The position numbers were made by a program, and so were the translations under genes. From Candidatus Woesearchaeota archaeon (lineage in GTDB: Archaea; Nanobdellota; Nanobdellia; Woesearchaeales; JABGXB01): DNA of 64,000 bases. How positions within the stretch are numbered: position 1 is the first letter of the stretch; every line of letters starts with the position of its first letter. Below, piece after piece: positions 11,423 to 39,103 of the stretch. The stretch lies in assembly GCA_018675975.1 (NCBI GenBank), contig JABGXB010000003.1, positions 267,821 to 331,820 of the forward strand, in the 5' to 3' direction. The notes beneath the pieces were generated by a model. It was not told where the DNA came from. It ran no database searches and worked only from the letters and a program-made list of their open reading frames with translations.

Positions 11423-11695
11423 ATGAGAACTTCTTTATATAAAAATGCAATTGAATGTTCAAATGCTCTTGATGAAAAATTAAAAGAATTTGAATTAAAA
11501 TTAATAAATCCTAAAGATCATTTTGGAAGAGATTTAACTTCTTTTGAAAAAGGAAAATTAGCATATATAAGTCACCTTCCTAATCAAGAATTAAATATAT
11601 TAAATATGGGTCCTCCAAAAAAATTTTATGAAAGATTCAAATATAATTTAGGACAATTATTTGCATCTTTTGTAGATTCATATAATATAGATTAA
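11423..11695 (+). CDS. hypothetical small protein
   Basis: 90 aa ORF with normal composition; no recognised motif. Confidence 0.35.
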   Translation: MRTSLYKNAIECSNALDEKLKEFELKLINPKDHFGRDLTSFEKGKLAYISHLPNQELNILNMGPPKKFYERFKYNLGQLFASFVDSYNID

Positions 11696-11711
11696 AATTC
11701 TACAATATTTT

Positions 11712-13873: not shown

Positions 13874-15754
13874 TTAATTAAATATTTTAGAAACTTCTTT
13901 TGAAACAATAGTTGGATTAACTTTACCTTTTAATTTGCCCATTAAAATACCCATTAATTTTCCACGATTAATATTAGAATCAGATTTCATTTCAAAATCA
14001 ATAATTTCTTTTATTTTTTTAATTGCTTCACCATCATCTAATAATTTATATTTTTTAGAAATAATTTCAATAGTAGAATTAGTATTTAAAAATTCTAAAA
14101 TAATATCATAAATACAAGCGTGATCAATTTTATTTTCATTCCACAACTCAAAAATAAATCTAGCCATATCTAAATCCCAATTAAACTCTAAATTATCTTT
14201 ACGTCTTAATTCTTTTGGAATGGATAAAAACTTTTCTGCAATACTTGATGATTTTAAATTTTTATTATCTTTAATTAATTCTTCAAAAATATTATTAGAA
14301 TAATCTTTAGAAATATCACGCGCAAGATCTTCACCTAAACCTAAAGATTTATATCGGTTAATTTTATCATCAATTAATTCAGGTAATTCTATATTACTAA
14401 TATCAGGAATAATACTTTTAACATCAGTTTCAGGATACATTCGAGAAGATCCTGGAATCGGTCTCATATAAACACTTGTAAACGTTTTCACTACAGCTCT
14501 AACTTCATCAATTACCCCAATTTTAATTGCCATTCTTGCACGTCTATATGCAGCAAATAAAGCTAAAATAACTTTTTCTTTTTTATCTGCACAAATTATG
14601 AATGCATCTTTTTCTTTACAATTTAATTCATCAATAATATGATTAACTTGAAAATTTTCAATTCCGTATTTTGGCAATTCATCACTATGAAAAATACCAC
14701 CAACACCAGATTCAACTTTTGCATAATCAGATAATTCAGAACCCAATCTACGATTATCTTGAATTTCACATCCTAAAAAACCTTTAAAACAATTTAATTT
14801 AATACCATAAACAACTCCATTATTATCTAAAGCAGAATTAATTACCTTGCTATCAGAGTTCTTAAAAATATCAGATAAATCAAAAATTTCTACATCTTCA
14901 AAATCATTTATATTATCATATTCAACTAATTCTTGATGACCATTAAACATTTTACTTAATTCATGTTTAATTTTATTAAGATTTATTTGTCTTAGAATTT
15001 CACTATCTATAATAATTTGTAAATTTTTTAAATCTTGAGCACCCTTTAACTCAACACGATTTCCACCATGAATTGAAATATTTAAATCTTGTCTAATTGT
15101 ACCAAGACCTCTTTTAACTTTATTCGTACTTCTAAGTAGCATTCCAATTTGGCTTGCAATTTGTTTTGCATGTTCAGGTGTTTTAATAGAAGCATCAGTT
15201 GAAATTTCAATTAAAGGAATACCTTGTCTATCTAATCTATAATCAATAGAATTATTATTTTTTGCTATATCCTTACAAGCATCTTCTTCTAATAAAATTG
15301 AATCAATATTTACATTTCCTATTTCATTTTTTAAAATACCATCACTTGCAATTAAACTAGTTCTTTGAAAACCACTAGTAACTGAACCATTAGCAATTAT
15401 TTTTCTCATTACTTCAATTCGTTTTACAATTTTTGCATTAACAAGTTTTGAAAAAACTAAAACAACATTTAATGCATCTTTATTTAAATCATGAGGAGGC
15501 TCCTCATCTAATTCCACAGAACAAGTTGTATCATAATAACCCTGATAATTATAAATTAAATTTTTTTGCATTTCAACTTTAGCTGCCACATCCATATCCC
15601 CTGACTCACCAGAACTAGCATGCATTTTTCTAGTTATTATAAAATCAGGCTCATCATCTCGCAATATAGAAGGACAATTACAAAACAATTTATTAGTATT
15701 TAATTGCTGATGAATTTCAATACCAATTTTTAAATTTAATTTATTATAATCCAT
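13874..15754 (-). CDS. gatE: Glu-tRNA(Gln) amidotransferase subunit E
   Basis: 626 aa; N-terminal LKIGIEIHQQLNTNKLFCNCPS characteristic of archaeal GatE; follows gatD. Confidence 0.85.
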   Translation of the reverse strand: MDYNKLNLKIGIEIHQQLNTNKLFCNCPSILRDDEPDFIITRKMHASSGESGDMDVAAKVEMQKNLIYNYQGYYDTTCSVELDEEPPHDLNKDALNVVLVFSKLVNAKIVKRIEVMRKIIANGSVTSGFQRTSLIASDGILKNEIGNVNIDSILLEEDACKDIAKNNNSIDYRLDRQGIPLIEISTDASIKTPEHAKQIASQIGMLLRSTNKVKRGLGTIRQDLNISIHGGNRVELKGAQDLKNLQIIIDSEILRQINLNKIKHELSKMFNGHQELVEYDNINDFEDVEIFDLSDIFKNSDSKVINSALDNNGVVYGIKLNCFKGFLGCEIQDNRRLGSELSDYAKVESGVGGIFHSDELPKYGIENFQVNHIIDELNCKEKDAFIICADKKEKVILALFAAYRRARMAIKIGVIDEVRAVVKTFTSVYMRPIPGSSRMYPETDVKSIIPDISNIELPELIDDKINRYKSLGLGEDLARDISKDYSNNIFEELIKDNKNLKSSSIAEKFLSIPKELRRKDNLEFNWDLDMARFIFELWNENKIDHACIYDIILEFLNTNSTIEIISKKYKLLDDGEAIKKIKEIIDFEMKSDSNINRGKLMGILMGKLKGKVNPTIVSKEVSKIFN

Positions 15755-15759
15755 TTTAA

Positions 15760-17058
15760 TTATCTTAAAAAAGAATCCTTATTTATATGATTATCAATTT
15801 CACCCTTTAAATTTTTATTATATAATTCAAGAATTTGACTCAAATCTATATTTTTACTCAATAAATAAGCAATTTTACAAAAAGCAGTTTCTATAGTTGT
15901 ATCCATTAAATGTCCAGCAATATTTAATTCGCTTAATTTTCTACCAGTAGAATAAACATTTTGATTAATTCTTCCATAAATAGTTTGTGCTGTAAAAATA
16001 ATTGGAATTTTTTGACTCATATTTTTTATCCAATCATAAAATTTATTATGATTTATTGTAAAGTTATCAATTTCATTAATTGGCATATTCCCAATACCAA
16101 CAGAACATATAATTAATGCATCAAAATTATTATACATTTCAAATTCATCTATATGCATATTGGGATGAATATATAAGATTCCAATTTTTAAATTAGAATT
16201 TAATTTAATTAATTTATTTTCAATTTTCTTATAATAATTATATTTTTCAAATTCATATGTTTTTGAAATTTTATCTTCAATCACATTTACACTTGCAAGT
16301 TCAATAGAATTAATTTGTCGAAACGCACCTCTAAAAGTTGTATGCATTTTTCTTACATTAACACCTTTTAAAATGTGACAAATATTATCTGATTCATTTT
16401 TATGCATACAAATAAAGATTCCTGATTTATCATATGTAGATAAAAATTTACTTGCTGCAGCCATATTAATATAAGCATCACTACTTCCCCTATCACTACT
16501 TCTTTGAGCACCAACAATTACAACTGGAATAGTTAAATCCTCAAACATAAAAGAAAGTGCCGCACTAGTATAATGTAAAGTATCCGTACCATGAGTAATT
16601 ATAACACCATCATAATGATTTTCAACTGCTAACTTTATTTCTTCTGCAATTAAATTATAATGATCAAATCTCATATCTTCAGACCACATTGCAGCTAATA
16701 ATTTAGTATCAAAATTACAATATTTATGCATTAAGCTAAACATATTTAATAATTCTTCAGGAGTTATTTTACTAATTACACCACCTGTTGCATAATCAAC
16801 CTTTGAAGCAATCGTTCCACCAGTATGTAATATTAAAATATTTTTCTTATCAGACGAATGAGAAAATAAATTTTCAATTTCTTTTGAATTATTTTGACTA
16901 TTTTTTTTTATAATTTCAAGTTTAGAACTTGCAGGTAAAGAAATATTATAACCTGAAGATAATTTTAAAACAATAAAATCTCCATCTTGTTTAATAAAAA
17001 TACCTTCATATAATTTACCATCATTTTCAATTTGTATAAAATCTTTAAATTCTGCCAT
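15760..17058 (-). CDS. gatD: Glu-tRNA(Gln) amidotransferase subunit D (asparaginase-like)
   Basis: 432 aa; asparaginase signatures ILHTGGTIAS and ITHGTDTL; N-terminal GatD-specific extension. Confidence 0.85.
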   Translation of the reverse strand: MAEFKDFIQIENDGKLYEGIFIKQDGDFIVLKLSSGYNISLPASSKLEIIKKNSQNNSKEIENLFSHSSDKKNILILHTGGTIASKVDYATGGVISKITPEELLNMFSLMHKYCNFDTKLLAAMWSEDMRFDHYNLIAEEIKLAVENHYDGVIITHGTDTLHYTSAALSFMFEDLTIPVVIVGAQRSSDRGSSDAYINMAAASKFLSTYDKSGIFICMHKNESDNICHILKGVNVRKMHTTFRGAFRQINSIELASVNVIEDKISKTYEFEKYNYYKKIENKLIKLNSNLKIGILYIHPNMHIDEFEMYNNFDALIICSVGIGNMPINEIDNFTINHNKFYDWIKNMSQKIPIIFTAQTIYGRINQNVYSTGRKLSELNIAGHLMDTTIETAFCKIAYLLSKNIDLSQILELYNKNLKGEIDNHINKDSFLR

Positions 17059-18711: not shown

Positions 18712-19335
18712 TTATTTTTTAAAATCTTTTAAAACCATTTCTAATAAATCAGAATTACAATTAAATTTTTTTATTAATTCATGCTCAATATGTCTATTCC
18801 ATTTATAATTTTTCAAATAAACAGGTATTCCTTCATTTGCACATTCTAATGCATACCTTTCTGAATCTTCAACTATAAAAAGTCCATTATTTATTTTAAT
18901 TAATTCTGGTTTAGTAGGTCCATATCCATGATAATATTTTGTTGCAAAAAGTACTTTTTCAACTGAAGGAAAATGTAAACGGATATAATTTTCAGTATCT
19001 CCATATGTATCCATTAATCGACTAGTTAAACATTGAATTCTAAAATATTCAGACAAATCATTAATACAATTTTGTGCATGTGCAATTGGTATTAAATTTG
19101 TATAAGCACCATTTTTGATATATTTCTGAAAAATACTTATTACATATTTAGAATCATGATTAGTGTGAGTAGTAATATCAGCAGATTTTAAATTTTCAAA
19201 TAAAAGTCTATCATTACCAACTAAACCATGATATTCATTCCAAAAATTACAAAAATCAGGTAATAAATGCACTAAAACTTCATCAATATCAAAAAAAATT
19301 AATTTTTTAGAATTATCATTTAAATCAAATTTCAT
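18712..19335 (-). CDS. HAD-superfamily 5'(3')-deoxyribonucleotidase-like (NT5C/YorS-like) protein
   Basis: 207 aa; N-terminal LIFFDIDEVLVHLLPDF resembles the DMD(G/E)VLADF motif of the NT5C family. Confidence 0.45.
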   Translation of the reverse strand: MKFDLNDNSKKLIFFDIDEVLVHLLPDFCNFWNEYHGLVGNDRLLFENLKSADITTHTNHDSKYVISIFQKYIKNGAYTNLIPIAHAQNCINDLSEYFRIQCLTSRLMDTYGDTENYIRLHFPSVEKVLFATKYYHGYGPTKPELIKINNGLFIVEDSERYALECANEGIPVYLKNYKWNRHIEHELIKKFNCNSDLLEMVLKDFKK

Positions 19336-25933: not shown

Positions 25934-26161
25934 TTAATTCTTACTTACTTTTATTATATTAACTGGACATGATAATTCAGCATTTTTTGCTGATTCATAT
26001 TCATCTTCAGTTTCAACCTTATTAAAAAAATCTTTATTTTGTTTAGAATCAATTAAATTGCTTTTCCCATCCTTTTCATCAATAATAAACAAATTAGGAG
26101 CTTCTTCAACACATGCATTACAACCTATGCATTTTCGTCTTAAATGATTTATATTAATCAA
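25934..26161 (-). CDS. small 4Fe-4S ferredoxin
   Basis: 75 aa; CIGCNAC ... CP cluster-binding pattern; overlaps the stop of the upstream U32 gene by 8 nt. Confidence 0.65.
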   Translation of the reverse strand: MININHLRRKCIGCNACVEEAPNLFIIDEKDGKSNLIDSKQNKDFFNKVETEDEYESAKNAELSCPVNIIKVSKN

Positions 26162-27395
26162 TATTTATCACCTTGAATAATTTATCATTTGGTCTAATTA
26201 TTTCATTTATATGTGTAGTAAAAACATCTCCTTTATTTACAATATCAACAAATTTTTCATTTAACATTAATTCATTAACTTTATTTTCAATAACGCCAGT
26301 GGTCTGACCAGTTATCATAATATTATCATCTTTACTAATTGAATCAGAATGAATTTTAAATTCAGCTATATTGGTTTTTTTAAAATAATTTGTACAGATA
26401 CCGATTAATATTTTTTTTTTTGTCGCAATACTGCCTCTTTGATTATGCCATTGACCTAAATGACGTCCAAGATAATAACCATCCCAAAATCCTCTATTAT
26501 AAACACCAGATAATCTTTTTTTCCAATTATCTATTTTTTCTATATTAAATGTCCCATCCAATATAGAATTTAAAGCTTCTTTATAACATTCAGTTGTAAC
26601 TTTTACATAGTCTGCTGATTTTCCCCTGCCCTCTATTTTTAAAACAGTTACACCAGCATTAATTATTTTATCTAAAAAATCAATTGTACACAAATCTTTT
26701 GGAGACATTATATATTCATTATCAATTTTTAATTCATTTCCTTCTTCATCTTTAACAGTATATGTACGACGACAATTTTGTTTACAAGCACCACGATTAG
26801 CAGAAGAATTTGCAGTATGTAGACTTAAATAACATTTACCACTAACTGCCATACATAATGCACCATGAACAAAAATTTCAATTCCAACTAAATTTCCATT
26901 TGGCCCACATATATTTTCTTTTTTTATTAAATCACATATTTCTTTTACTTGTTTTATAGTACATTCTCTTGAAAGTACAATTACATCAGCAAATTTTGAA
27001 AAAAATTTAACTGTTTCAAAATTAGTAACATTTGCTTGAGTAGAAATATGTACAGATAATCCAATTTCATTTGCATAATTGATTACAGCTAAATCTGAAG
27101 CAATAACAGAATCAATCCCACTATTTTTTGCACAACTTACAATTTCTTTCATTAAAACTATATCGTGACTATATACTATTGTATTTAGAGTTAAATAGGT
27201 TTTTACATTTTTTATTTTACATTGTTGAGCAATTTTTTTTAAATCTTCAATAGTAAAATTAATTGAACTTCTAGCTCTCATATTTAACTGTTCAATTCCA
27301 AAATAAATTGAATCAGCACCTGCATTTAATGCAGCATTTAAATTCTCCCAACTCCCAACTGGAGCCATAATTTCATATTTCATATTATATTGCAA
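26154..27395 (-). CDS. peptidase U32 family protein (RlhA/TrhP/UbiU-like)
   Basis: 413 aa; U32 signature EIFVHGALCMAVSGKCYLS; N-terminal TIM-barrel region GADSIYFGIEQ. Confidence 0.75.
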   Translation of the reverse strand: MQYNMKYEIMAPVGSWENLNAALNAGADSIYFGIEQLNMRARSSINFTIEDLKKIAQQCKIKNVKTYLTLNTIVYSHDIVLMKEIVSCAKNSGIDSVIASDLAVINYANEIGLSVHISTQANVTNFETVKFFSKFADVIVLSRECTIKQVKEICDLIKKENICGPNGNLVGIEIFVHGALCMAVSGKCYLSLHTANSSANRGACKQNCRRTYTVKDEEGNELKIDNEYIMSPKDLCTIDFLDKIINAGVTVLKIEGRGKSADYVKVTTECYKEALNSILDGTFNIEKIDNWKKRLSGVYNRGFWDGYYLGRHLGQWHNQRGSIATKKKILIGICTNYFKKTNIAEFKIHSDSISKDDNIMITGQTTGVIENKVNELMLNEKFVDIVNKGDVFTTHINEIIRPNDKLFKVINID

Positions 27396-29189: not shown

Positions 29190-29273
29190 AAAATTAAATT
29201 TAAAATATAGATTTTAAAATTACAAAATACTTATAATAAATTTGAACTCATTTAAAATAAAAAAGGTGTATAT

Positions 29274-31034
29274 ATGAATTATCAAATGAAGAATTTTTCC
29301 ACTGAGCAAACTGAATTATTAAGATCATTTCTTTTTACAGCTCCACATAGTAATGTAAGTTTAATTTATCCACAACAATTAGTTGCAGGTGAAGAACTAG
29401 CCCCATTAATTTCAGCATATTCAAGAAGCAATCAACCACTTCAAGAAAGAGTATTAGAATTTGTTGATAAACAAAAAAATACAGAAGCTAAAGCACTATT
29501 ACCACATTTACCAGAATTAATGAAAACATTTAGAAATGAAGATGGTTCATTAAAAATTAGTAAAAAAACAAGAAACTTTTCTAAAAAATGGGTTCTTGCG
29601 CACGGTCACAGTTCAATAAAAGAAATGAATTCTATTTTTGGATGTGTTGAAGGAATTTCAGACATTTGTGGAAAATTAATTACTGGACATCCTTTAGCCC
29701 ACCCTCAAGTTAAGTCATCAAGATATATTTCTTTTGAAGATACATTAGATATGGCATTAGTAGATCCAGACATTCAAAACTTATCTTGTTCAAATGAAAT
29801 TATAGAACATTTAAAAGAATTAAATACAGAATATCTTAATGCAACTAAATATTTAGCAAATGCAGTATTTAAATCTGAAGAAACTGATCAAATAAGAGAA
29901 TTTTTAACTCGAGACTCAGTATTAGATATGCATGGTGAAAAATTATTTAATCGTGCTAAAAAAAAAGATCCAGAATTAGTAAAAACTGACACATTAATAG
30001 AAGAATTAAAATCACAGGCTTATGAAAATATAAATAGTGATGAGTATGTAATGGGACAACTTGAAAAATTTGTTCTTGATAGAAGTAGAGTATATTTACC
30101 TGGTTCAACTAGAACAAGTTTAGGTTTTATGATTGATGGTAGAACATGTGAAGAAATCATTACAACATTATTAACTAGTCCTTTAATAGAAGCCCAAAGT
30201 TTTGGTAATCAAATTTGGACTGAAACAAAAAAAATCTCACCTGTTTTATTAGGAGATCAATCCCATATTAAAAAAGATGAATGGAAATATGAGTTAGATA
30301 CGGACTTTAGAAAAGAATTAGCTACACGATTAGATTATATTGTCATGCACTCTGAACAAAAATTTGGAAGAGTTTATTCACCAAGCTTTGTACATTCAAG
30401 AGGAGAAGATACAAGATCTGCAGTTATGGCTGCATATAAATATAGTGATTTTTCTTTTGATGATTTAATAGAACAATTAAAAGAAAAAGATGTTAAATGG
30501 ATTTTAGATAGAACTCACGAACATAGAAATAAATTTGATCAATTACATGAAAGTGGTGGTCATGGTGGTATGCTTACTGAAATGACTATGCCATATCATG
30601 GTTATAGAGATATGTTTAGACATAGAAAAGGAGCAAGATCTAATCAATTATATACAACAGTTCACGGTTTTGAAAATGTTGAAATTTTTAATCATTTTGA
30701 TATAAATTCAAGATATGAATTATTAATGAATAAAAATAATGAATTATTTAGAAAAGCAGCAAAAGAAAATCCCCATGCTGCACAAAAAGTTGTTGCCTTT
30801 GGTCAATTATGTAGAGCAGCACACAGTTGGTCATTAGAACAAATTGGATATATTGCAAGAATAAGAGCGAATATTGAAACCGGAAATATTAGTTATGTAA
30901 AAACTGTTCATCAAATTGTAGATGGTGTAAAAAGATTATCACCACAATTAGCATCAAAAATAAATTATAATCAAGAAATGTTTCCAGAACATATTTGGAA
31001 AGAAGGTTATGATTTATTTAGAAGTAAAAAATAA
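29274..31034 (+). CDS. large hypothetical protein, His-rich C-terminal region (first gene of candidate novel cassette)
   Basis: 586 aa; no family recognised; His-rich stretch HEHRNKFDQLHESGGHGGMLTEMTMPYHGYRDMFRHRKGARS; 33-nt gap to the next gene. Confidence 0.6.
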   Translation: MNYQMKNFSTEQTELLRSFLFTAPHSNVSLIYPQQLVAGEELAPLISAYSRSNQPLQERVLEFVDKQKNTEAKALLPHLPELMKTFRNEDGSLKISKKTRNFSKKWVLAHGHSSIKEMNSIFGCVEGISDICGKLITGHPLAHPQVKSSRYISFEDTLDMALVDPDIQNLSCSNEIIEHLKELNTEYLNATKYLANAVFKSEETDQIREFLTRDSVLDMHGEKLFNRAKKKDPELVKTDTLIEELKSQAYENINSDEYVMGQLEKFVLDRSRVYLPGSTRTSLGFMIDGRTCEEIITTLLTSPLIEAQSFGNQIWTETKKISPVLLGDQSHIKKDEWKYELDTDFRKELATRLDYIVMHSEQKFGRVYSPSFVHSRGEDTRSAVMAAYKYSDFSFDDLIEQLKEKDVKWILDRTHEHRNKFDQLHESGGHGGMLTEMTMPYHGYRDMFRHRKGARSNQLYTTVHGFENVEIFNHFDINSRYELLMNKNNELFRKAAKENPHAAQKVVAFGQLCRAAHSWSLEQIGYIARIRANIETGNISYVKTVHQIVDGVKRLSPQLASKINYNQEMFPEHIWKEGYDLFRSKK

Positions 31035-31066
31035 AAAAAAAAGAATAATAAAAAAGAGGTTAGTAA

Positions 31067-31696
31067 ATGAATTTAAGTATATATAGTGAGATTCCAATGC
31101 ATCAAGTTATTGAAGAAGTTAGAAAATCCCCTATGTTAAAATCTGATACTCAATTTCCTTACAAAAATGCAAATATTAGTTTACGTAATGTCGGTATGGG
31201 TGAAATTAATCCAACAAGTTTATATGCATTAAAAGCTAATTTGGATTTTCAAAAAAACTTAAGAGAATATATATTAAATAGATTTGGTTTTGATACATTA
31301 AGATTAAGTTCTGGTCTTATATTAGAAAATAAAGATGGGGAGCGTCAAACATTAATACCTCCTATAGTTGAAGTATCAGAAAGAGAAGTTAAGTTCATTC
31401 CACAAAAAGATGAATTATCATATGAAAATTCATATAAAATAAAAATACCGTGTTTACTTGATGGTATTCATCGCGCACTATGTGCAAAAGAATTAGGTAT
31501 AGATTTAAATGTAATTTTTATTTATGATTCAGATACCAATTATCCTGTTTATGCACATCCAAATGAATGGGATTTAGTTAAAATTTGTGATAGTATACCA
31601 AAAGAAAAAAGTCAAAAAAAAATGTATTTAAGAGATGATCATTCTAGTTTGTATAAATCATTTGCACACTTAGGTTCAAGTGGTCTTAGAAAATGA
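31067..31696 (+). CDS. ParB/Srx-fold (ParB-like nuclease domain, DGxHR motif) protein
   Basis: 209 aa; IPCLLDGIHRALCAKELGIDLNVIFI matches the ParB/sulfiredoxin/DndB-type DGxHR..A...G core; stop overlaps the next start by 4 nt. Confidence 0.6.
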   Translation: MNLSIYSEIPMHQVIEEVRKSPMLKSDTQFPYKNANISLRNVGMGEINPTSLYALKANLDFQKNLREYILNRFGFDTLRLSSGLILENKDGERQTLIPPIVEVSEREVKFIPQKDELSYENSYKIKIPCLLDGIHRALCAKELGIDLNVIFIYDSDTNYPVYAHPNEWDLVKICDSIPKEKSQKKMYLRDDHSSLYKSFAHLGSSGLRK

Positions 31697-32850
31697 GTAA
31701 TTTAGTTTTAGTTGAAGGAATAAGTGGAGCTGGTAAAAGTACAGCAATTAATTTTATTCAATCTTATCTTTCAACATTCAATATTCAAAGTCACACATTT
31801 AATGAACCCGGTCATATGCGAGATGAAATTAAAAAATATCATAATAGAGAAGACAGAGATCTTCAATTAGAATTTGATCATTATGTTTTATCCAGAAAAG
31901 TTGATTTACATCATAAAGTAATGCCAACTATAAAAAATCACCCAAAGGATACTATCCTCATTGATCGAAGTTGGATTTCTACAATGGTTTATCAACAAAC
32001 AGAACAATGTCCAATGATAAATATTCGTGATTATCATTCCTTTTATCCCAAACACAATTTAGCATTACTCTTAATTTGTGATCCTGAAACTGCATATCAA
32101 AGAATTTTAAAAAGAAAAGAAACTCAAGGAATAGAATTAAGTACATCTGAAAATCCAAAAAGAATTGCTGAACTTAGAAAAAGTTATATTGAAGCATTTG
32201 ATTTAGTAGATTATTCTGTAATTATTAATACTGATGGAAGTGAAAATGCAGTTAATTGTATTTTAAAATCTTATATGAATAAATTATTAGGAATTAAAGA
32301 AAAAAAAATTGTTTTTTTAGATAAAGATGGTACTTTAGTTGACAATTCTAAATATCCAGAAGTAATTCCAACGGATGAAATTCTTTTTGCAGATACATTA
32401 GAAGGATTATATAAATTAAAAAGTGCAGGATATGAATTTCATATGATTTCTTCTCAACCATGGGTTGCTAAAGGTCAATTAAGTTTAGATCAAACAAATG
32501 AAATTTTTGAAAGTGTTATAGAACAATATAAAAAATATGGAATTGAATTTACTGGATATGGTTTTTGTGAACATCATAGAAGTGATAATTGTCCAGATAA
32601 AAAACCAAATACAGGTTTATTAGAACAAATAGCAACTCAACAAAATATTGATATTTCTCAAAGCTTTTTTATAGGAGATATGGAATCGGATATTGAATGC
32701 GGTTATAATTTTGGATTACAAACTGGATTAGTAACTAAATATTCAAATGCAAAAACAATAGATAATTTATCTCAACAAAGATTTAAAAGAACTCCAAATT
32801 ATACTGCAATTAATTTGAATGAAATTGCAAATCAAATAATTGAAAATTAA
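31693..32850 (+). CDS. fusion protein: thymidylate-kinase-like P-loop kinase (N) + GmhB/PNKP-type HAD-IIIA phosphatase (C)
   Basis: 385 aa; P-loop LVEGISGAGKST and DRSWISTMVYQQ (compare Tmk EGxDGAGKTT / DRYxxSSxAYQ); C-terminal HAD motifs VFLDKDGTLV, MISSQPWVAKG, DKKPNTGLL, IGDMESDIECGYNFG with a Cys/His cluster CEHHRSDNCPDKKP. Confidence 0.7.
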   Translation: MSNLVLVEGISGAGKSTAINFIQSYLSTFNIQSHTFNEPGHMRDEIKKYHNREDRDLQLEFDHYVLSRKVDLHHKVMPTIKNHPKDTILIDRSWISTMVYQQTEQCPMINIRDYHSFYPKHNLALLLICDPETAYQRILKRKETQGIELSTSENPKRIAELRKSYIEAFDLVDYSVIINTDGSENAVNCILKSYMNKLLGIKEKKIVFLDKDGTLVDNSKYPEVIPTDEILFADTLEGLYKLKSAGYEFHMISSQPWVAKGQLSLDQTNEIFESVIEQYKKYGIEFTGYGFCEHHRSDNCPDKKPNTGLLEQIATQQNIDISQSFFIGDMESDIECGYNFGLQTGLVTKYSNAKTIDNLSQQRFKRTPNYTAINLNEIANQIIEN

Positions 32851-33025
32851 TATTTGTTAATTATATTAATTAAAAAAACTAAATTGTTTTTTTTTTGTAA
32901 AAAGAGTTCGAACGTTAATTCCTTACATTTGAATTTAATGAATATATAAAAACAAAAAAACAATATAATTCACTAAGCAGATAAAACAAAACATTATAAA
33001 GCAAATGTATCTATAAAAATAATAC

Positions 33026-33073
33026 ACACTAGGAATAGTGTCACAGCAAATATTAATAACACAATATACGGGG
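33026..33073. promoter_or_regulatory. two putative NrdR boxes upstream of nrdR-nrdJ
   Basis: Box 1 acactaggaatagtgt (33026..33041) is a 16-bp palindrome with acac...gtgt ends like the NrdR-box consensus; box 2 acacaatatacgg (about 33059..33071) is a half-palindrome; the starts are 33 bp apart. Confidence 0.5.
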
Positions 33074-33154: not shown

Positions 33155-33604
33155 ATGAAATGCCCACATTGTAATTCAGATGATTTGAAAGTAAATGAAA
33201 CAAGAGAAACAGAATCAAATAGTTTTAGAAGAAGAAGAGAATGCAATAATTGTGAAGAAAGATTTACTACATATGAAAAAATTCAAGAATTATTAATTAG
33301 TGTAAAAAAAGAAAGTGGAAAATTAGAAAATTATACTAAAGAAAAATTAGAAAAAAGTTTTTTGATTGCTTGTAATAAAAGACCAATAACAAGAATTCAA
33401 ATATTAAAAATTATTGAAAACATTGAAAATAAAATAAGAAATAATTTTAAAAATGAAATTTCATCTAAGACATTAGGTGAATATGTAATGGAAGAATTAA
33501 AAATTTTAGATCCAATATCATATATTAGATATGCTTCAGTATACAAAGATTTTGATGATTTAGATAAATTTAATCAAGAATTAATATTATTAAAGGTGAA
33601 TTGA
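33155..33604 (+). CDS. nrdR: transcriptional repressor NrdR (zinc ribbon + ATP-cone)
   Basis: 149 aa; MKCPHCNSDDLKVNETRE...RRRRECNNCEERFTTYE is the NrdR zinc-ribbon signature; directly abuts nrdJ. Confidence 0.85.
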   Translation: MKCPHCNSDDLKVNETRETESNSFRRRRECNNCEERFTTYEKIQELLISVKKESGKLENYTKEKLEKSFLIACNKRPITRIQILKIIENIENKIRNNFKNEISSKTLGEYVMEELKILDPISYIRYASVYKDFDDLDKFNQELILLKVN

Positions 33605-36600
33605 ATGGAACAAAGTATTGAAACAAAACGAACTGGTATAAAAGTTAAAAAAGTTTTTTGTAGTGATAATATAAGCCCATTTGAAACTGTTGAATTTGAA
33701 AACAGATCAAGTGTGATAAAAAATAGAGATGGTTCTATATTATTTGAAATAAATAATATTCATGCTCCAAAAAAATGGTCGCAAGTTGCCGTAGATATAA
33801 TGGCACAAAAATATTTTAGAAAAAGTGGAGTTCCACAATATGATGAAAATCAAAATGAAATTAAAGATGAATTTTCAAATATAATTACAGGTTCAGAAAC
33901 AGATATTACTCAACCAATAAAAAGATTAACTGGATGTTGGAGACATTGGGGAGAAAAATATAATTATTTTGATACGCAACAAGATGCAATTAATTTTGAA
34001 CAAGAAATACAATATATGTTATTACATCAAATCGCTGCACCAAATAGTCCACAATGGTTTAATACGGGACTTAAATGGGCATATAATATTTCTGGAAGTG
34101 CACAAGGACATTATTATGCTGAACATGAAACAGGTGAAATTAAATTATCTGAGGATGCATATTCAAGACCTCAACCGCATGCATGTGCGGATTATTATAC
34201 ACAAGTGTATACTGATAAGGGTACAATGTATATTGGAGATATAGTTGAAAATAATTTAACTAATATAAAAGTATTTGATGGAGAAAAATATGTAAAAGTT
34301 CTTGCAATCAAAAACAATGGAAAAAAAGAAGTGTTTAAAATTCAATTAAAAAATGGAAATTATATTAAATTAACTCAAGATCATTTAGTGCTATCATCAC
34401 AAAAAAGAAAAAAAAATGGTGGAAATTATAACTGGAATTATGTAAAAGATGTAAAATTAGGTCACAAATTACAACAACCATTAATTCTAGATATTAAAGA
34501 AAAAAATGTATTTAGTGATGATTTAGCAAAAGCAAGATTAGCCGGTTGGATAGTTGGAGACGGATCAGTTGGAATTTATGAAAATGTAATGAGATTGGAA
34601 ATTATTTCTATTAAAGAAGAAGAATTTGAATCAATAATAAATGATATTCAAGAAGTATTTGGACAAGAAGTTAATTTTTGGATTAGTAAATTTAAAACAA
34701 AAAACGAAAATTTAGATGGTAAAAGAATTCATTTAGCAGGTAAAAAAATACATAAATTAATTGAAGACTATGATTTACTAAAATCTTCATTTAATGCAGA
34801 AGTACCTCAAAAAATAATTAATGGGTCACCACAAGAAAAAAGAGAATTTTTAAAAGCCTTATTTCAAGCAGATGGTTGTGTCAGAATTAGAAAAGATGAA
34901 AATAGAAATTCAGGAGATGTGTGTTTAACTACAATTTCAGAAAATCTTTCATTTGGAGTTTTACAATTATTAAATTCATTAGGTATTTATTGTAGAATTA
35001 ATAAATATAGTGATAAAAGAGAAAATCGAAAAGATGTTAATCAAGTTATAGTATCTTATGGTAGTGCAAGAGAACAATTTCAAGAACAAATTTCTTTTAT
35101 ATGTTCTCAAAAAACCGAAAAATTAGAATTATTAAATAAAATTATAACAAAATCAAAAACACTTCCATTAATAAGAGAAGAAACAATTATTTCAATTGAA
35201 TCTGAAGGCATTAAAGATGTTTATGATATTCAAACAGAATCTTCAAAATTTCTTGGAAATGGAATTGTAATACATAATTGTTTTATTCAATCAGTTAAAG
35301 ATGATTTAGTTAATCAAGGTGGAATATTTGACCTTTGTACAAGAGAGGCAAGAATATTTAAATATGGTTCTGGAACTGGTTCAAATTTTTCACAATTAAG
35401 AGGTCAGTCTGAAAAATTATCAGGTGGTGGAAGATCTTCAGGTATGATGTCATTTTTAAAAATATTTGATGTGGCAGCTGGAGCAATTAAATCAGGTGGT
35501 ACAACAAGACGTGCAGCAAAAATGGTTTGTCTTGATTTGGATCATCCAGAAATTATTGAATTTATTGATTGGAAAGCAAATGAAGAAAAAAAAGTTGCTA
35601 ATTTAATTACTGGTTCAAAAAATTCAAAATATCATTTACAAAAAATATTAAAAGAAGCAAGTTCAAATTCAAATATAGAAAAAAATCCAAAATTAAAATC
35701 AGCAATTAAAGAAGCTATTGAACAAAATATTTCTTTAAATTATATTGATAGAGTTTTAAAACTTGCAAATCAAGGAATAACTGAATTTGAAACTCCCGAG
35801 TTTGATAATCATTTTGAAGGTGAAGCATATTCTACAGTTAGTGGACAAAATTCAAATAATTCAATAAGAATACCAAATTCATTTTATGAAGCTGTTCATA
35901 AAGACTTAGATTGGAATTTAAAAAATAGAACTGATGGAAAAATTTCAAAAACTGTAAGAGCAAAATGGCTTTATGATAAAATTGGACAAGCTGCTTGGGC
36001 TTGTGCAGATCCTGGTGTTCAATTTGATACGACAATTAATGAATGGCATACATGTCCAAAAGATGGAAGAATTAATGCAAGTAATCCTTGTTCTGAATAT
36101 ATGTTTTTAGATGATACTGCATGTAATTTAGCTAGTATTAATTTAATTCATTTTATTAATGATAGTGGACATTTTAATGAAGAAAAATTTGCTCATGCAT
36201 GTGAACTTATGACAATTGTTTTGGAAATTTCAGTTACTATGGCTCAATTTCCAAGTGATGAAATTGCAAAAAGAAGTTGGGAATATAGAACATTAGGTTT
36301 AGGTTTTGCAAATTTAGGGACATTACTCATGGTTAAAGGAATTTCTTATGATAGTGATGAAGCTAGAAGTATAGCTGGAGGAATTAGTGCCATAATGTGT
36401 GGAACTGCTTATGAAACATCTGCTAAACTCGCAAAACATCTAGGACCTTTTAACAGATATGAACATAATAAAGATGACATGTTAAGAGTTATTAGAAATC
36501 ATAGACGTGCTGCATATAATGTTTCAAATGAAGAGTATGAAAAATTAGAAATTACTCCAGTTGGCATTGATGAAAATTTATGTCCAAATAATATTTTACA

Positions 36601-38146
36601 AAAAGCTAGAAATTCATGGGATAATGCACTTGAACTTGGACAAGAATATGGATTTAGAAATGCACAAGTAACTGTTATTGCACCAACCGGAACTATTGGA
36701 CTTTTAATGGATTGTGATACTACAGGAGTTGAGCCAGACTTTGCAATTGTTAAATATAAAAAACTTGCAGGCGGTGGTTATTTTAAAATTGTAAATCATT
36801 CAGTTATTAAAGCATTGAGAACTTTAGGTTATGAAAAAGATCAAATTATTGATATTAAAAAATATTGTATAGGTCATCAAACATTAGTGGGTTGTCCAAC
36901 CATAAATCATAAAATTTTAAAAGATAAAGGATTTGATGAAGAAAAATTAGAACTTATTGAAAAACAATTAGAAACTGCATTTGATTTGAGTTTTGTTATG
37001 AATAAAAATATTTTAAGTGAAGAATTTTTAAAAAAATTAGGATTTAGTGATGAACAATTAAATTCTGAAATGTTTGATTTACTAGAAGAATTAAAATTTA
37101 CAAAAGAACAAGTTGATATTGCAAATGAATATGTTTTTGGAACAATGACAGTTGAAGATGCTCCATACTTATTAGAAGAACATTATTCAGTTTTTGATTG
37201 TGCAAATAAATGTGGAAAAAAAGGTAATAGATATATTGACACTTATGGACATATTAATATGATGGCAGCAGTTCAACCTTTTATTTCTGGTGCAATTAGT
37301 AAAACAATTAATATGGATTCAGAAGTTAGTGTTAAAGATATTTTAGATGCTTATGAAGCTAGTTGGAAATTAATGCTTAAAGCAAATGCATTATATAGAG
37401 ATGGATGTAAATTAAGTCAACCATTAAATACTGCTGTTTTTGAAAGTGAATACAATTTAAATTTATCTGAAGAAGATATTGATGAAACAGTTGATTCAGC
37501 AGCAATTCAACAACAAATTCAAACAATGAAAGCAAATCAGTTGCCGAGAAAAAGAGGTGGTTTTGTTCAAGAAGCAACTGTTGCAGGTCACAAAATATAT
37601 TTAAGAACTGGTGAATATAATGACGGAAAATTAGGTGAAATTTTTATTGACATGTATAAGGAAGGTGCTGCCTTTAAAGCACTAATAAATTGTTTTGCAG
37701 TTGCAATAAGTAAATCTCTACAATTTGGTGTTCCTTTAGAAGAATTTGTTGAACAGTTTACATTTACTAGATTTGAACCGGCAGGTTTAGTAACTGGACA
37801 TGAATATATTAAAAATTCTACGTCAATATTAGATTATGTATTTCGTGTTCTAGGCTATGAATATTTAGGTAGAGATGATTTAATTCATGTAAAACCTAAA
37901 AGAAAACCACTAGACATTATAGAACATGAAGATGATCCAAGAGATAAACATAAAACACTAGATAGTTTTTCTAATAGAAAAAATGTAGAAGAGACTAGAA
38001 ACGAAATGCTTTTTAAAAAAATTAATACTGCCAAATCAAGAGGATATACTGGAGAAGCATGTGGTTCTTGTGGTAGTATGAGAGTAAAAAGAAATGGAAG
38101 TTGTACACTTTGTGAAGATTGTGGTTCTACTAGTGGTTGCAGTTAG
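33605..38146 (+). CDS. nrdJ: ribonucleotide reductase, class II-like (adenosylcobalamin-dependent NrdJ type), containing one intein
   Basis: 1513-aa precursor; N-terminal [21 protein letters not shown] (class II WSQ..A.DI...KYF motif), active-site [22 protein letters not shown]-terminal Cys-rich zinc-ribbon tail; no nrdB nearby. Confidence 0.85.
34184..35278 (+). mobile_element. intein (365 aa) with LAGLIDADG homing endonuclease domain inserted in nrdJ
   Basis: Starts with Cys (PQPHA|CADYYTQVY), ends IVIHN followed by the +1 Cys (|CFIQSV); two LAGLIDADG blocks [11 protein letters not shown] and [11 protein letters not shown]; extein junction restores a contiguous PHACFIQS. Confidence 0.8.
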
Positions 38147-38590: not shown

Positions 38591-39103
38591 TTAATTCAAT
38601 TTATTACATAAATAATTAAATTCAGTACAGAAAAGTTCCAATCTTTCAATTATTTGATCATTAATAATTTCACTACCACTAATATCATTATATGTTGAAT
38701 AAACAAATCTTGGTAAAATAATACATCTAAAATCTAACATTAAGCTATTTACAAATGATAATGGTGCCATATAAGAACTTGAACCACCTGCAGAACATAA
38801 AATGCCAATTAATTTTTCACTTAAAGATTTTCCTGCAAGTTCAATTACATTTTTTGCTGAGCTATTAATATTATAATTATAAATTGGAAGTGCAAAAATC
38901 ACCCCATCTGCATTTTCAATTTGTTTTTTTAATTCAATTACATTAGTAAATTCATAACATTTCCCTGCATCACACATTGGCAAATCAAAATGAAATAAAT
39001 CGATAAATTCAATATCACAATCTAATCGAGATTTAACATATTTTGCAAGAATTCTACTTTTACTATCTTTATTTAAGCTTGTAGATATAATTAAAACTTT
39101 CAT
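38591..39103 (-). CDS. flavodoxin-like NAD(P)H-dependent FMN reductase family protein
   Basis: 170 aa; MKVLIISTSLNKDSKSRILAKYV ... GVIFALPIYNYNINSSAKNVIELAG typical of NADPH-dependent FMN reductase/ArsH-like flavoproteins. Confidence 0.6.
   Translation of the reverse strand: MKVLIISTSLNKDSKSRILAKYVKSRLDCDIEFIDLFHFDLPMCDAGKCYEFTNVIELKKQIENADGVIFALPIYNYNINSSAKNVIELAGKSLSEKLIGILCSAGGSSSYMAPLSFVNSLMLDFRCIILPRFVYSTYNDISGSEIINDQIIERLELFCTEFNYLCNKLN

What the first reader, a model, noticed from the sequence alone, without database searches (positions are those of the whole stretch)
29274..32850. Uncharacterised, translationally coupled three-gene cassette: His-rich 586-aa unknown, ParB/Srx-fold protein, Tmk-like kinase::HAD phosphatase fusion
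Three co-directional genes (gaps of 33 nt and a -4 nt overlap) form a tight operon with its own upstream region. It lies between a hypothetical 150-aa gene and the NrdR-box-regulated nrdR-nrdJ dNTP-synthesis operon. I do not recognise the combination as a described system. It pairs a ParB/sulfiredoxin-fold DGxHR domain with a P-loop nucleotide kinase fused to a PNKP/GmhB-type phosphatase. ParB/Srx domains recur as NTP-binding or DNA-nicking modules in DNA-modification and defence systems (for example the DndB and DpdB families). The kinase and phosphatase pair resembles end-healing chemistry. The large protein has no recognisable fold and carries a His-rich putative metal site. Plausible roles are a nucleic-acid end-healing or repair module, a DNA or nucleotide modification pathway feeding on dNTP pools, or a defence island.
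Basis: partly seen in the sequence, partly recalled or inferred. Interest (0 to 1): 0.8.

Follow-up and report, generated by a model that had tools for sequence, protein, structure and literature searches.

The report
Thymidylate operon with ParB-like partner
The three genes form a conserved thymidine-nucleotide synthesis operon of a tiny (DPANN) archaeon: an unusual double-length ThyX thymidylate synthase, a thymidylate kinase fused to a phosphatase, and between them an uncharacterised ParB-like protein that also accompanies thymidylate synthases in bacteria.

Summary
The three ORFs exist as described and are tightly coupled (32-nt gap, 4-nt overlap).

The 209-aa protein belongs to Pfam PF24392 "ParB-CE". 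The 385-aa protein is a Tmk-family kinase fused to a HAD-IIIA phosphatase.

In 15 of 17 informative DPANN loci the order ThyX–ParB-CE–Tmk is kept. A HAD phosphatase is always present, either fused to Tmk or as a separate downstream gene.

In bacteria, ParB-CE sits beside an unrelated (ThyA-type) thymidylate-synthase-like protein plus a HAD, often with a dCMP deaminase. Elsewhere it sits with Tmk, TK and dNK.

The cassette is therefore housekeeping pyrimidine deoxynucleotide metabolism (dUMP→dTMP→dTDP). It is not end-healing, DNA modification or defence.

The role of ParB-CE is unproven. My best guess is that, with the HAD, it trims a pyrimidine dNTP or dNDP to the monophosphate used by the synthase. 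The main rival is a kinase role.

Interest is moderate to high: an untested, cross-domain partner of thymidylate synthases.

The parts
29190..29273 (+). AT-rich upstream region of the cassette, with a GGTG ribosome-binding-like site just before the ATG; presumed promoter
   Evidence: Sequence read. Promoter function is inferred, not tested.
29274..31034 (+). Double-length (fused, pseudo-dimeric) ThyX-family flavin-dependent thymidylate synthase, 586 aa
31035..31066 (+). 32-nt spacer with a GAGGT ribosome-binding site
31067..31696 (+). ParB-CE family protein (PF24392), 209 aa, with conserved PPIVE and DGxHR motifs
   Evidence: Pfam E 1.8e-14, 54 bits against a cut-off of 23. 392 relatives among representative proteins. 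Invariant residues listed.
31693..32292 (+). Thymidylate-kinase (Tmk) domain of the fusion protein, residues about 1-200; overlaps the previous gene by 4 nt
   Evidence: Pfam Thymidylate_kin 3.3e-17 and TIGR00041 2.8e-19. PDB Tmk hits. P-loop, DR and YQ motifs are conserved.
32293..32850 (+). HAD-IIIA phosphatase domain of the fusion protein, residues about 201-385
   Evidence: TIGR01662 82 bits (cut-off 44.6) and TIGR01656 86.7 bits (cut-off 84.15). PDB HisB-N and GmhB hits. The DKDGT, KKPN and GDxxxD motifs are visible in the translation.
32887..32896 (+). Run of 10 T after the stop codon; possible archaeal oligo-T terminator separating the cassette from nrdR-nrdJ
   Evidence: Sequence read. 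Function is inferred.

Best explanation
The cassette is a housekeeping operon for thymidine-nucleotide synthesis in a DPANN archaeon.

Supported by family, motif and fold matches (no activity was tested):
- Gene 1 is a ThyX-family thymidylate synthase in which two ThyX-like halves are fused in one chain.
- The N half keeps the HxSxxE, S-x-R-Y, R147-like and R165-like residues. The C half keeps the R74-like, RHR and R174-like residues.
- One chain therefore carries one full set of ThyX active-site residues.
- Gene 3 is a Tmk-type dTMP kinase fused to a HAD phosphatase.

Inferred pathway: dUMP is methylated to dTMP by the fused ThyX, and dTMP is phosphorylated to dTDP by Tmk.

Gene 2 (ParB-CE) and the HAD form a conserved accessory pair. 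My preferred reading, inferred and not shown, is that they act as nucleotide phosphohydrolases. They would strip a pyrimidine deoxynucleoside tri- or diphosphate (dUTP/dUDP or dCTP/dCDP, the products of the neighbouring NrdJ reductase) stepwise down to the monophosphate. That monophosphate is the only form a thymidylate synthase accepts. Tmk then re-phosphorylates the methylated product.

I put about 0.85 on 'thymidylate / pyrimidine deoxynucleotide operon with a fused ThyX'. I put about 0.35 on the specific hydrolase role of ParB-CE plus HAD.
For: Identity of the parts.

Conservation in DPANN:
- ThyX-ParB-CE-Tmk are collinear and mostly overlapping in 15 of 17 informative loci.
- A HAD is always present. 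It is fused to Tmk in 6 loci plus the window, and is a separate orthologous gene after Tmk in 9 loci.
- The window's HAD-IIIA is not orthologous to those stand-alone HADs.
- One relative is a ParB-CE::HAD fusion.
- In L107 an HD hydrolase takes the HAD's place, in the fusions HD::ParB-CE and HD::Tmk.

Cross-domain link to thymidylate synthases:
- In bacterial metagenome loci ParB-CE lies next to a methanogen-type ThyA-like protein fused to a pterin-binding domain, in 16-17 of 17 loci with enough flank. A HAD lies directly upstream in 14 of 17.
- A subset reads HAD-ParB-CE-dCMP deaminase-TS-like, collinear with dCTP>dCDP>dCMP>dUMP>dTMP.

Other contexts are also pyrimidine metabolism: dNK-HAD-Tmk-ParB-CE-TK, dCMP deaminase-ParB-CE, and PyrF-PRTase-ParB-CE.

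Fusion partners of ParB-CE are nucleotide hydrolases: HD, NUDIX and HAD.

Precedent: in the PUA-Cal-HAD system a HAD converts dNTP to dNDP and a '-CE' phosphoesterase converts dNDP to dNMP (PMC12871103).

Housekeeping setting: the flanks are ribosomal, tRNA-synthetase and similar genes, with Dcd, Dut or dCMP deaminase in some.
Against: - No activity has been tested for any of the three proteins.
- The ParB/Srx fold of gene 2 could not be verified. The single-sequence model failed. Profiles find no PDB relative. No family member hits the classical ParBc model.
- The ThyX scores below NCBI's equivalog cut-off (26.9 against 87.9), and its profile finds no solved ThyX by sequence. A changed substrate cannot be excluded.
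- Locus L006 has Dut and Dcd directly flanking the cassette, so the pair is not simply a substitute for them.
- L011 lacks ParB-CE altogether.
- In L115 ParB-CE sits among kinases with no synthase, which fits a kinase role as well.
- I could not check whether these genomes have another thyA or thyX.
Confidence: 0.55

Rival explanations
1. ParB-CE is a phosphotransferase rather than a hydrolase. It could be an NDP-kinase-like enzyme (dTDP>dTTP) or a nucleoside or nucleotide kinase, so that the operon runs dUMP>dTMP>dTDP>dTTP. The HAD would then act as an overflow or proof-reading nucleotidase.
For: ParB/Srx-fold proteins include true phosphotransferases (SerK, SbnI, sulfiredoxin), as summarised in PMC12704722. 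In L115 ParB-CE sits in a row of kinases: dNK-HAD-Tmk-ParB-CE-TK-P-loop. No Ndk was found in the 64-kb window. The invariant D, E, H and R residues fit a phosphoryl-transfer site.
Against: Its fusion partners are hydrolases (HD, NUDIX, HAD). From memory of the original description, the family was named as a predicted nucleotide-degrading effector. The window covers only about 6% of the genome, so the missing Ndk means little.
Confidence: 0.17
2. ParB-CE is a nucleotide-gated regulatory subunit, by analogy with the CTP switch of ParB. It would sense a pyrimidine (d)NTP and tune the synthase, or the opposing kinase and phosphatase activities, to balance dTTP against dCTP.
For: The ParB fold is a general NTP-binding switch (PMC12704722). 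Tmk::HAD and HD::Tmk join opposing activities on one chain, which invites regulation. ParB-CE is dispensable in L011.
Against: Near-invariant acidic and basic residues (E102, D132, H135, R136) across 125 diverse members look catalytic. Fusion to hydrolases suggests consecutive chemistry. No physical interaction has been tested.
Confidence: 0.13
3. The cassette is a nucleotide-depletion defence module. ParB-CE plus HAD would be the effectors, and the synthase-like protein would sense modified phage nucleotides.
For: From memory, the 'CE' label comes from a survey of nucleotide-targeting immune effectors. The HAD plus '-CE' pairing is a proven anti-phage effector in PUA-Cal-HAD. HD::ParB-CE and ParB-CE::NUDIX fusions exist.
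Against: ThyX and ParB-CE have no PADLOC hit. The setting is stable and housekeeping, in very small genomes. The catalytic residues of ThyX and Tmk are conserved. The bacterial form sits beside ThyA-DHFR-dCMP deaminase. There are no relatives of the DPANN genes in viral contigs and no sign of a variable island.
Confidence: 0.07
4. This is the first reader's reading: a nucleic-acid end-healing or repair module, or a DNA-modification system, built on a PNKP-like kinase-phosphatase and a DNA-nicking ParB/Srx protein.
For: The kinase-then-HAD-IIIA domain order resembles T4 Pnkp. There are weak hits to PNK3P (2.3e-5) and to DNA 3'-phosphatase TIGR01664 (2.8e-8).
Against: The PNKP models are far below cut-off (25 against 502.8; 33.8 against 107.65), while the HisB-N/GmhB-type models score much higher. 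The kinase is Tmk-type, with the thymine-binding YQ motif. The partner is a thymidylate synthase. No ligase, nuclease or methyltransferase is conserved nearby.
Confidence: 0.03

Closest known systems
Canonical ThyX (flavin-dependent thymidylate synthase, e.g. Thermotoga maritima TM0449, M. tuberculosis ThyX) with Tmk
   Different: It is 586 aa rather than about 220-250. Two ThyX-like halves are fused, and neither half carries the full motif set, so a chain can form at most one canonical site. It scores below the thyX equivalog cut-off. No solved ThyX is found by sequence alone.
PUA-Calcineurin-CE-HAD anti-phage system (preprint PMC12871103)
   Same: A HAD phosphatase is paired with a '-CE' phosphoesterase-type protein. 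There the pair removes phosphates stepwise, dNTP to dNDP to dNMP.
   Different: That system is a defence module with a PUA sensor and filament assembly. Here the partners are ThyX and Tmk in a housekeeping setting, the CE protein is of another family (ParB-like rather than calcineurin-like), and no activity is known.
Bacterial triad seen here: methanogen-type ThyA-like::pterin-binding (DUF4346) protein, HAD and ParB-CE
   Same: The same ParB-CE family with the same invariant residues, a HAD partner, and adjacency to a pyrimidine C5-methylating enzyme. It often lies beside dCMP deaminase, ThyA and DHFR.
   Different: The synthase is of the unrelated ThyA fold and is fused to a pterin-binding domain. 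There is no Tmk in the cluster, and the HAD is of another lineage. It is also uncharacterised; no paper mentioning DUF4346 or PF24392 was found in the library.
ParB CTPase / sulfiredoxin / SerK (ParB/Srx superfamily)
   Same: The family name, and a D-G-x-H-R motif at the position of the Srx GCHR and ParB GERRxR phosphate-binding motifs.
   Different: There is no HTH or dimerisation domain and no parA or parS context. No detectable sequence match to ParBc or to any solved ParB/Srx structure was found. The fold was not verified here.
T4 Pnkp / mammalian PNKP (polynucleotide kinase-phosphatase)
   Same: A P-loop kinase joined to a HAD-IIIA DxDxT phosphatase in one chain.
   Different: The kinase is Tmk-family with a thymine-binding motif. 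The phosphatase is closer to HisB-N/GmhB. The PNKP models are far below cut-off, and the context is mononucleotide metabolism.

Membership tests
ThyX / flavin-dependent thymidylate synthase (Pfam PF02511, TIGR02170) | Match to the Pfam Thy1 model above its gathering score | tested here: met
   40 bits against a cut-off of 24.8, E 4.6e-10, residues 96-324. 60 of the 64 homologues carry PF02511 precomputed.
ThyX / flavin-dependent thymidylate synthase (Pfam PF02511, TIGR02170) | Match to the NCBIfam thyX equivalog above its cut-off | tested here: not met
   26.9 bits against a cut-off of 87.9.
ThyX / flavin-dependent thymidylate synthase (Pfam PF02511, TIGR02170) | ThyX fold | tested here: met
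ThyX / flavin-dependent thymidylate synthase (Pfam PF02511, TIGR02170) | ThyX signature residues (H53, R74, R78-H79-R80, S88, R90, Y91, R147, R174 in T. maritima numbering) together in one subunit | tested here: inconclusive
   All are present and invariant, but they are split. H112, S148, R150, Y151 and R272 are in the N half. R445, R449-H450-R451 and R531 are in the C half.
ThyX / flavin-dependent thymidylate synthase (Pfam PF02511, TIGR02170) | FAD-, NADPH- and CH2-H4folate-dependent conversion of dUMP to dTMP | not testable with these tools
   Needs an enzyme assay or thyA complementation.
ParB-CE (Pfam PF24392) | Match to the family model above its gathering score | tested here: met
   54.4 bits against a cut-off of 23, covering 143 of 147 profile positions. 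All 125 aligned relatives match it.
ParB-CE (Pfam PF24392) | Conserved PPIVE and DGxHR motifs | tested here: met
   P98, P99, E102, D132, G133, H135 and R136 are invariant or at least 90% conserved.
ParB/Srx superfamily | ParB/Srx fold and similarity to ParBc, Srx or SerK | tested here: inconclusive
   The single-sequence model failed with pLDDT 34. Profiles find no PDB sequence. There is no ParBc hit in 125 members. hhalign to human Srx aligns only the motif, at probability 0.4%.
Nucleotide-targeting conflict effectors ('CE' systems) | Location in a defence or effector context | tested here: not met
   No PADLOC hit. The flanks are housekeeping genes. The partners are ThyX and Tmk.
dTMP kinase (Pfam PF02223, TIGR00041) | Pfam model above cut-off, with P-loop, DR and YQ motifs | tested here: met
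   63.2 bits against a cut-off of 27. The motifs are conserved across 17 cassette kinases. PDB Tmk hits down to 2e-7.
dTMP kinase (Pfam PF02223, TIGR00041) | NCBIfam DTMP_kinase equivalog cut-off | tested here: not met
   69.6 bits against a cut-off of 83.25. One related genome (L006) has a second Tmk 4.7 kb away.
HAD-IIIA phosphatases (TIGR01662 / TIGR01656) | Subfamily models above cut-off and the four HAD motifs | tested here: met
   82.4 against 44.6 and 86.7 against 84.15. The DKDGT, S, KKPN and GDxxxD motifs are in the translation.
GmhB (heptose 1,7-bisphosphate phosphatase) / HisB-N | Equivalog cut-offs | tested here: not met
   NF006506 scores 89.7 against 178. TIGR01261 scores 75.9 against 140. 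TIGR00213 scores 70.3 against 149.6.
PNKP / end-healing enzymes | PNK-3'Pase or DNA 3'-phosphatase models above cut-off | tested here: not met
   TIGR01663 scores 25 against 502.8. TIGR01664 scores 33.8 against 107.65.

The most novel reading that the evidence does not exclude
ParB-CE is a previously unrecognised enzyme of pyrimidine deoxynucleotide metabolism. With a HAD phosphatase, it is a dedicated partner of thymidylate synthases of both unrelated folds: fused ThyX in DPANN archaea and ThyA-like::pterin-binding proteins in bacteria. It would carry out a step now credited to other enzymes, such as a stepwise dUTP/dCTP-to-dNMP supply route or an NDP-kinase-like step. If so, the textbook thymidylate pathway would have an unnoticed, widespread extra component.
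Probability: 0.4. Interest if true: 0.75.

Novelty: new variant of a known kind. Interest (0 to 1): 0.6.

Why it matters
- Thymidylate synthesis is essential and is a drug target, and its gene set is thought to be complete.
- Here an uncharacterised protein family is tied to it by gene order, gene fusion and non-orthologous replacement of partners. The tie holds across archaea and bacteria and across both thymidylate-synthase folds.
- Working out its chemistry could add a step or a control point to dTTP supply.
- It could also explain how very small symbiotic archaea balance their deoxynucleotide pools.
- It could show the housekeeping origin of a family otherwise discussed as an immune effector.
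- The fused, half-degenerate ThyX is a natural experiment on how many of the four ThyX active sites are needed.

Tried and rejected
- A single-sequence word-index search with ParB-CE found nothing. The exhaustive HMMER search and a profile search were needed instead.
- The single-sequence AlphaFold model of ParB-CE was unusable, with pLDDT 34.
- Sequence and profile searches of the PDB with ParB-CE gave no relative.
- The ThyX profile found no solved ThyX by sequence. The N and C halves are not detectably similar by hhalign.
- The afdb50 fold library was unavailable.
- Literature searches for ParB-CE, HD-CE, DUF4346, PF24392, fused ThyX and ThyX in DPANN returned nothing relevant.
- The paper that I recall naming the 'CE' domains (Nicastro et al., NAR 2023, gkad879) is not held. 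I could not check whether it already describes the synthase–HAD–ParB-CE neighbourhood.
- Defence was rejected: PADLOC is negative for ThyX and ParB-CE, and there are no viral relatives of the DPANN genes.
- End-healing was rejected on model scores and kinase motifs.
- The 'His-rich metal site' was rejected, because the conserved His residues lie in ThyX motifs.
- An NrdR-box pattern search was not above chance overall.
- The idea that ParB-CE simply replaces Dut or Dcd was weakened by L006, where both flank the cassette.


Full report
**Observation.** The window is about 23% G+C. It matches a Candidatus Woesearchaeota (DPANN archaeon) assembly, GCA_018653045.1. Three co-directional ORFs lie at 29274-31034 (586 aa), 31067-31696 (209 aa) and 31693-32850 (385 aa). 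The second junction is an ATGA overlap. An AT-rich 84-nt leader precedes the first gene. A run of ten T follows the last gene. The described layout is correct.

**Gene 1 is a thymidylate synthase, not an unknown.**
- Pfam places residues 96-324 in PF02511 (Thy1/ThyX) at E 4.6e-10, above the gathering score. NCBI's thyX equivalog model is matched only weakly, 26.9 bits against a cut-off of 87.9.
- Sixty-four full-length homologues (28-45% identity, about 560-615 aa) come almost only from Woese-, Pace- and Nanoarchaeota. Several are already named FAD-dependent thymidylate synthase by NCBI or JGI.
- An AlphaFold model built on 19 of them has pLDDT 85.
- By sequence alone, no solved ThyX is found, so the family is very divergent.

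The protein is about twice the length of a ThyX subunit. The residues that are invariant in the family are the ThyX active-site residues, and they are split between the halves:
- The N half keeps H112-x-S114-x-x-E117, S148-x-R150-Y151, R272 (R147-like) and R290 (R165-like). It has GHP where RHR should be.
- The C half keeps R445, R449-H450-R451 and R531 (R174-like). It lacks the Ser-x-Arg-Tyr motif.

In canonical ThyX each site is built from residues of neighbouring subunits. I therefore infer that the fused chain forms one composite site, and that a dimer would mimic the tetramer with half the sites.

**Gene 3.** Residues about 1-200 match thymidylate kinase (Pfam 3.3e-17; TIGR00041 2.8e-19, just under its equivalog cut-off; PDB Tmk chains). 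The P-loop, DR and thymine-binding YQ motifs are conserved in all 17 cassette kinases. Residues about 201-385 are a HAD-IIIA phosphatase. TIGR01662 and TIGR01656 score above their cut-offs, and the nearest solved structures are HisB-N and GmhB. All four HAD motifs are visible in the translation. The PNKP and DNA 3'-phosphatase models are far below cut-off.

**Gene 2.** It matches Pfam PF24392 'ParB-CE' (54 bits against a cut-off of 23). An exhaustive search found 392 relatives, and a profile search found 229. All are named 'hypothetical' where a source gives a name, and they include Actinobacteria. P98, P99, E102, D132, G133, H135, R136, W168 and R197 are at least 90% conserved across 125 diverse members. 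That pattern looks like a catalytic phosphate-binding site.

I could not verify the ParB/Srx fold. The single-sequence model failed. Profiles find no PDB relative. No member touches the classical ParBc model.

From memory, the 'CE' label comes from Nicastro, Burroughs, Iyer and Aravind (NAR 2023). They predicted such domains to degrade nucleotides in immune systems and traced them to housekeeping relatives. That paper is not in the library, so this is a lead and not a checked fact.

**Conservation in DPANN.** Nineteen loci from a one-genome-per-species collection encode the long ThyX. Two are cut off at the ThyX gene. Of the other 17:
- 15 keep ThyX→ParB-CE→Tmk on one strand, mostly with overlapping or near-touching genes.
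- L011 has ThyX–HAD–Tmk–PyrB without ParB-CE.
- L018 has ParB-CE divergently upstream.

A HAD is always present in the 15 collinear loci and in L011. It is fused to Tmk in six loci and in the window. In nine others it is a separate gene of about 215 aa overlapping the end of tmk, and these nine form one orthologous group. The window's HAD-IIIA is not orthologous to them. One relative is a ParB-CE::HAD fusion using the stand-alone type. The nrdR-nrdJ neighbours and the upstream 150-aa gene are not conserved with the cassette. The flanks are ordinary housekeeping genes, with Dcd, Dut or dCMP deaminase nearby in a few loci.

**Beyond DPANN.**
- In 80 bacterial metagenome loci, ParB-CE lies next to a 470-525-aa protein that joins a methanogen-type ThyA-like domain to a pterin-binding DUF4346 domain. 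TIGR03283 matches at 5e-29, and the equivalents of the catalytic Cys, R166 and N177 are kept. A HAD is usually present as well.
- Of 17 loci with at least 2.4 kb on both sides, 16-17 have the synthase-like gene and 14 have the HAD directly upstream.
- A subset reads HAD–ParB-CE–dCMP deaminase–synthase-like.
- Many of these loci sit beside ThyA–DHFR–HIT–dCMP deaminase.
- Other contexts are [HD::ParB-CE]–[HD::Tmk]–?–NUDIX, dNK–HAD–Tmk–ParB-CE–TK, dCMP deaminase–ParB-CE and PyrF–PRTase–ParB-CE.
- Fusion partners of ParB-CE are HD, NUDIX and HAD hydrolases.

ParB-CE is thus consistently embedded in pyrimidine (deoxy)nucleotide metabolism. It accompanies thymidylate synthases of both unrelated folds.

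**Mechanism.** Supported by family, motif and fold matches, with no activity tested: the cassette encodes a ThyX-type synthase and a Tmk-type kinase, which points to dUMP→dTMP→dTDP.

Inferred: ParB-CE and the HAD supply or balance the monophosphate substrate. My preferred model is stepwise removal of phosphates from dUTP/dUDP or dCTP/dCDP, the products of the adjacent class II reductase, down to the monophosphate. Tmk then re-phosphorylates after methylation. Three observations favour this model:
- The hydrolase fusion partners of ParB-CE.
- The gene order HAD–ParB-CE–deaminase–synthase in the bacterial subset.
- The experimental precedent of PUA-Cal-HAD, where a HAD makes dNDP from dNTP and a '-CE' esterase makes dNMP (PMC12871103).

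Three observations count against it. Dut and Dcd flank the cassette in L006. L011 lacks ParB-CE. The kinase-rich L115 cluster fits a phosphotransferase role equally well, and SerK, SbnI and Srx are ParB-fold kinases (PMC12704722). A regulatory NTP-switch role is also open.

Defence is unlikely. ThyX and ParB-CE have no PADLOC hit, the DPANN genes have no viral relatives, and the setting is housekeeping. End-healing and DNA modification are not supported.

**Comparison and novelty.** The parts belong to known families, and ThyX plus Tmk is ordinary. Three things are unusual:
- The fused, half-degenerate ThyX.
- The kinase-phosphatase fusion.
- The conserved ParB-CE/HAD pair linked to thymidylate synthases across two domains of life.

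No accessible paper mentions this link, but I could not read the paper that defined the family. I rate it a new variant of a known kind, with interest 0.6.

Noticed in passing
L022, L023, L024 and L026-L105 (for example L029:3733-9392 and L112:5315-8696): Bacterial loci, actinobacterial where named and otherwise soil metagenome, carry a conserved triad. It consists of a methanogen-type ThyA-like protein fused to a pterin-binding DUF4346 domain, a HAD, and ParB-CE. A dCMP deaminase is sometimes inserted, and the triad often lies next to ThyA-DHFR-HIT. It appears uncharacterised.
   Followed up: partly
L022:6655-9666, and also L028, L029, L036, L037, L041, L042, L054: A protein of about 1000 aa directly downstream of the short ParB-CE gene. 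It has a second ParB-CE domain near its C terminus (residues 824-937) and about 800 unannotated N-terminal residues.
   Followed up: no
L115:3100-7785: A deoxynucleoside-salvage cluster: dNK-HAD-Tmk-ParB-CE-TK-P-loop protein-HAD-like. No thymidylate synthase was recognised in it.
   Followed up: partly
L107:665-5735: The cluster [HD::ParB-CE]-[HD::Tmk]-409-aa unknown-[?::NUDIX]. An HD hydrolase takes the place of the HAD in both fusions.
   Followed up: partly
L008:2632-3336 and L018:2259-2984: A CARF/Csa3-like (HFX_2341_N) putative ligand-sensing regulator lies between or beside ThyX and ParB-CE in two DPANN loci. It may be a nucleotide-responsive regulator of the cassette.
   Followed up: no
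L006:7400-7828, 11667-12227 and 15709-16356: In one Woesearchaeota genome, Dut lies divergently upstream of the cassette and Dcd lies downstream. A second Tmk paralogue lies 4.7 kb further on.
   Followed up: partly
window 33605-38146: The class II ribonucleotide reductase NrdJ is 1513 aa because it carries an intein with a LAGLIDADG homing-endonuclease domain (Pfam families).
   Followed up: no
window 33026-33041 and 33155-33604: An archaeal NrdR gene (zinc ribbon plus ATP-cone) is preceded by a perfect-armed palindrome, ACACTAGGAATAGTGT, that resembles an NrdR box. The pattern count over the whole window is not above chance.
   Followed up: partly
window about 38591-39103 (- strand): A flavodoxin-like FMN reductase (PF02525/PF03358) lies just downstream of nrdJ. 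It could supply reducing power to the flavin-dependent ThyX or to the reductase.
   Followed up: no
window about 19274-19335 and upstream (- strand): A 5'(3')-deoxyribonucleotidase (PF06941, NT5C) gene lies about 10 kb upstream. It is another pyrimidine dNMP phosphatase in the same region.
   Followed up: no
window 25934-27395 (- strand): A peptidase-U32-family gene overlaps a small ferredoxin gene by 8 nt. From memory, U32 proteins include RNA 5-hydroxypyrimidine-forming enzymes (RlhA/TrhP).
   Followed up: no
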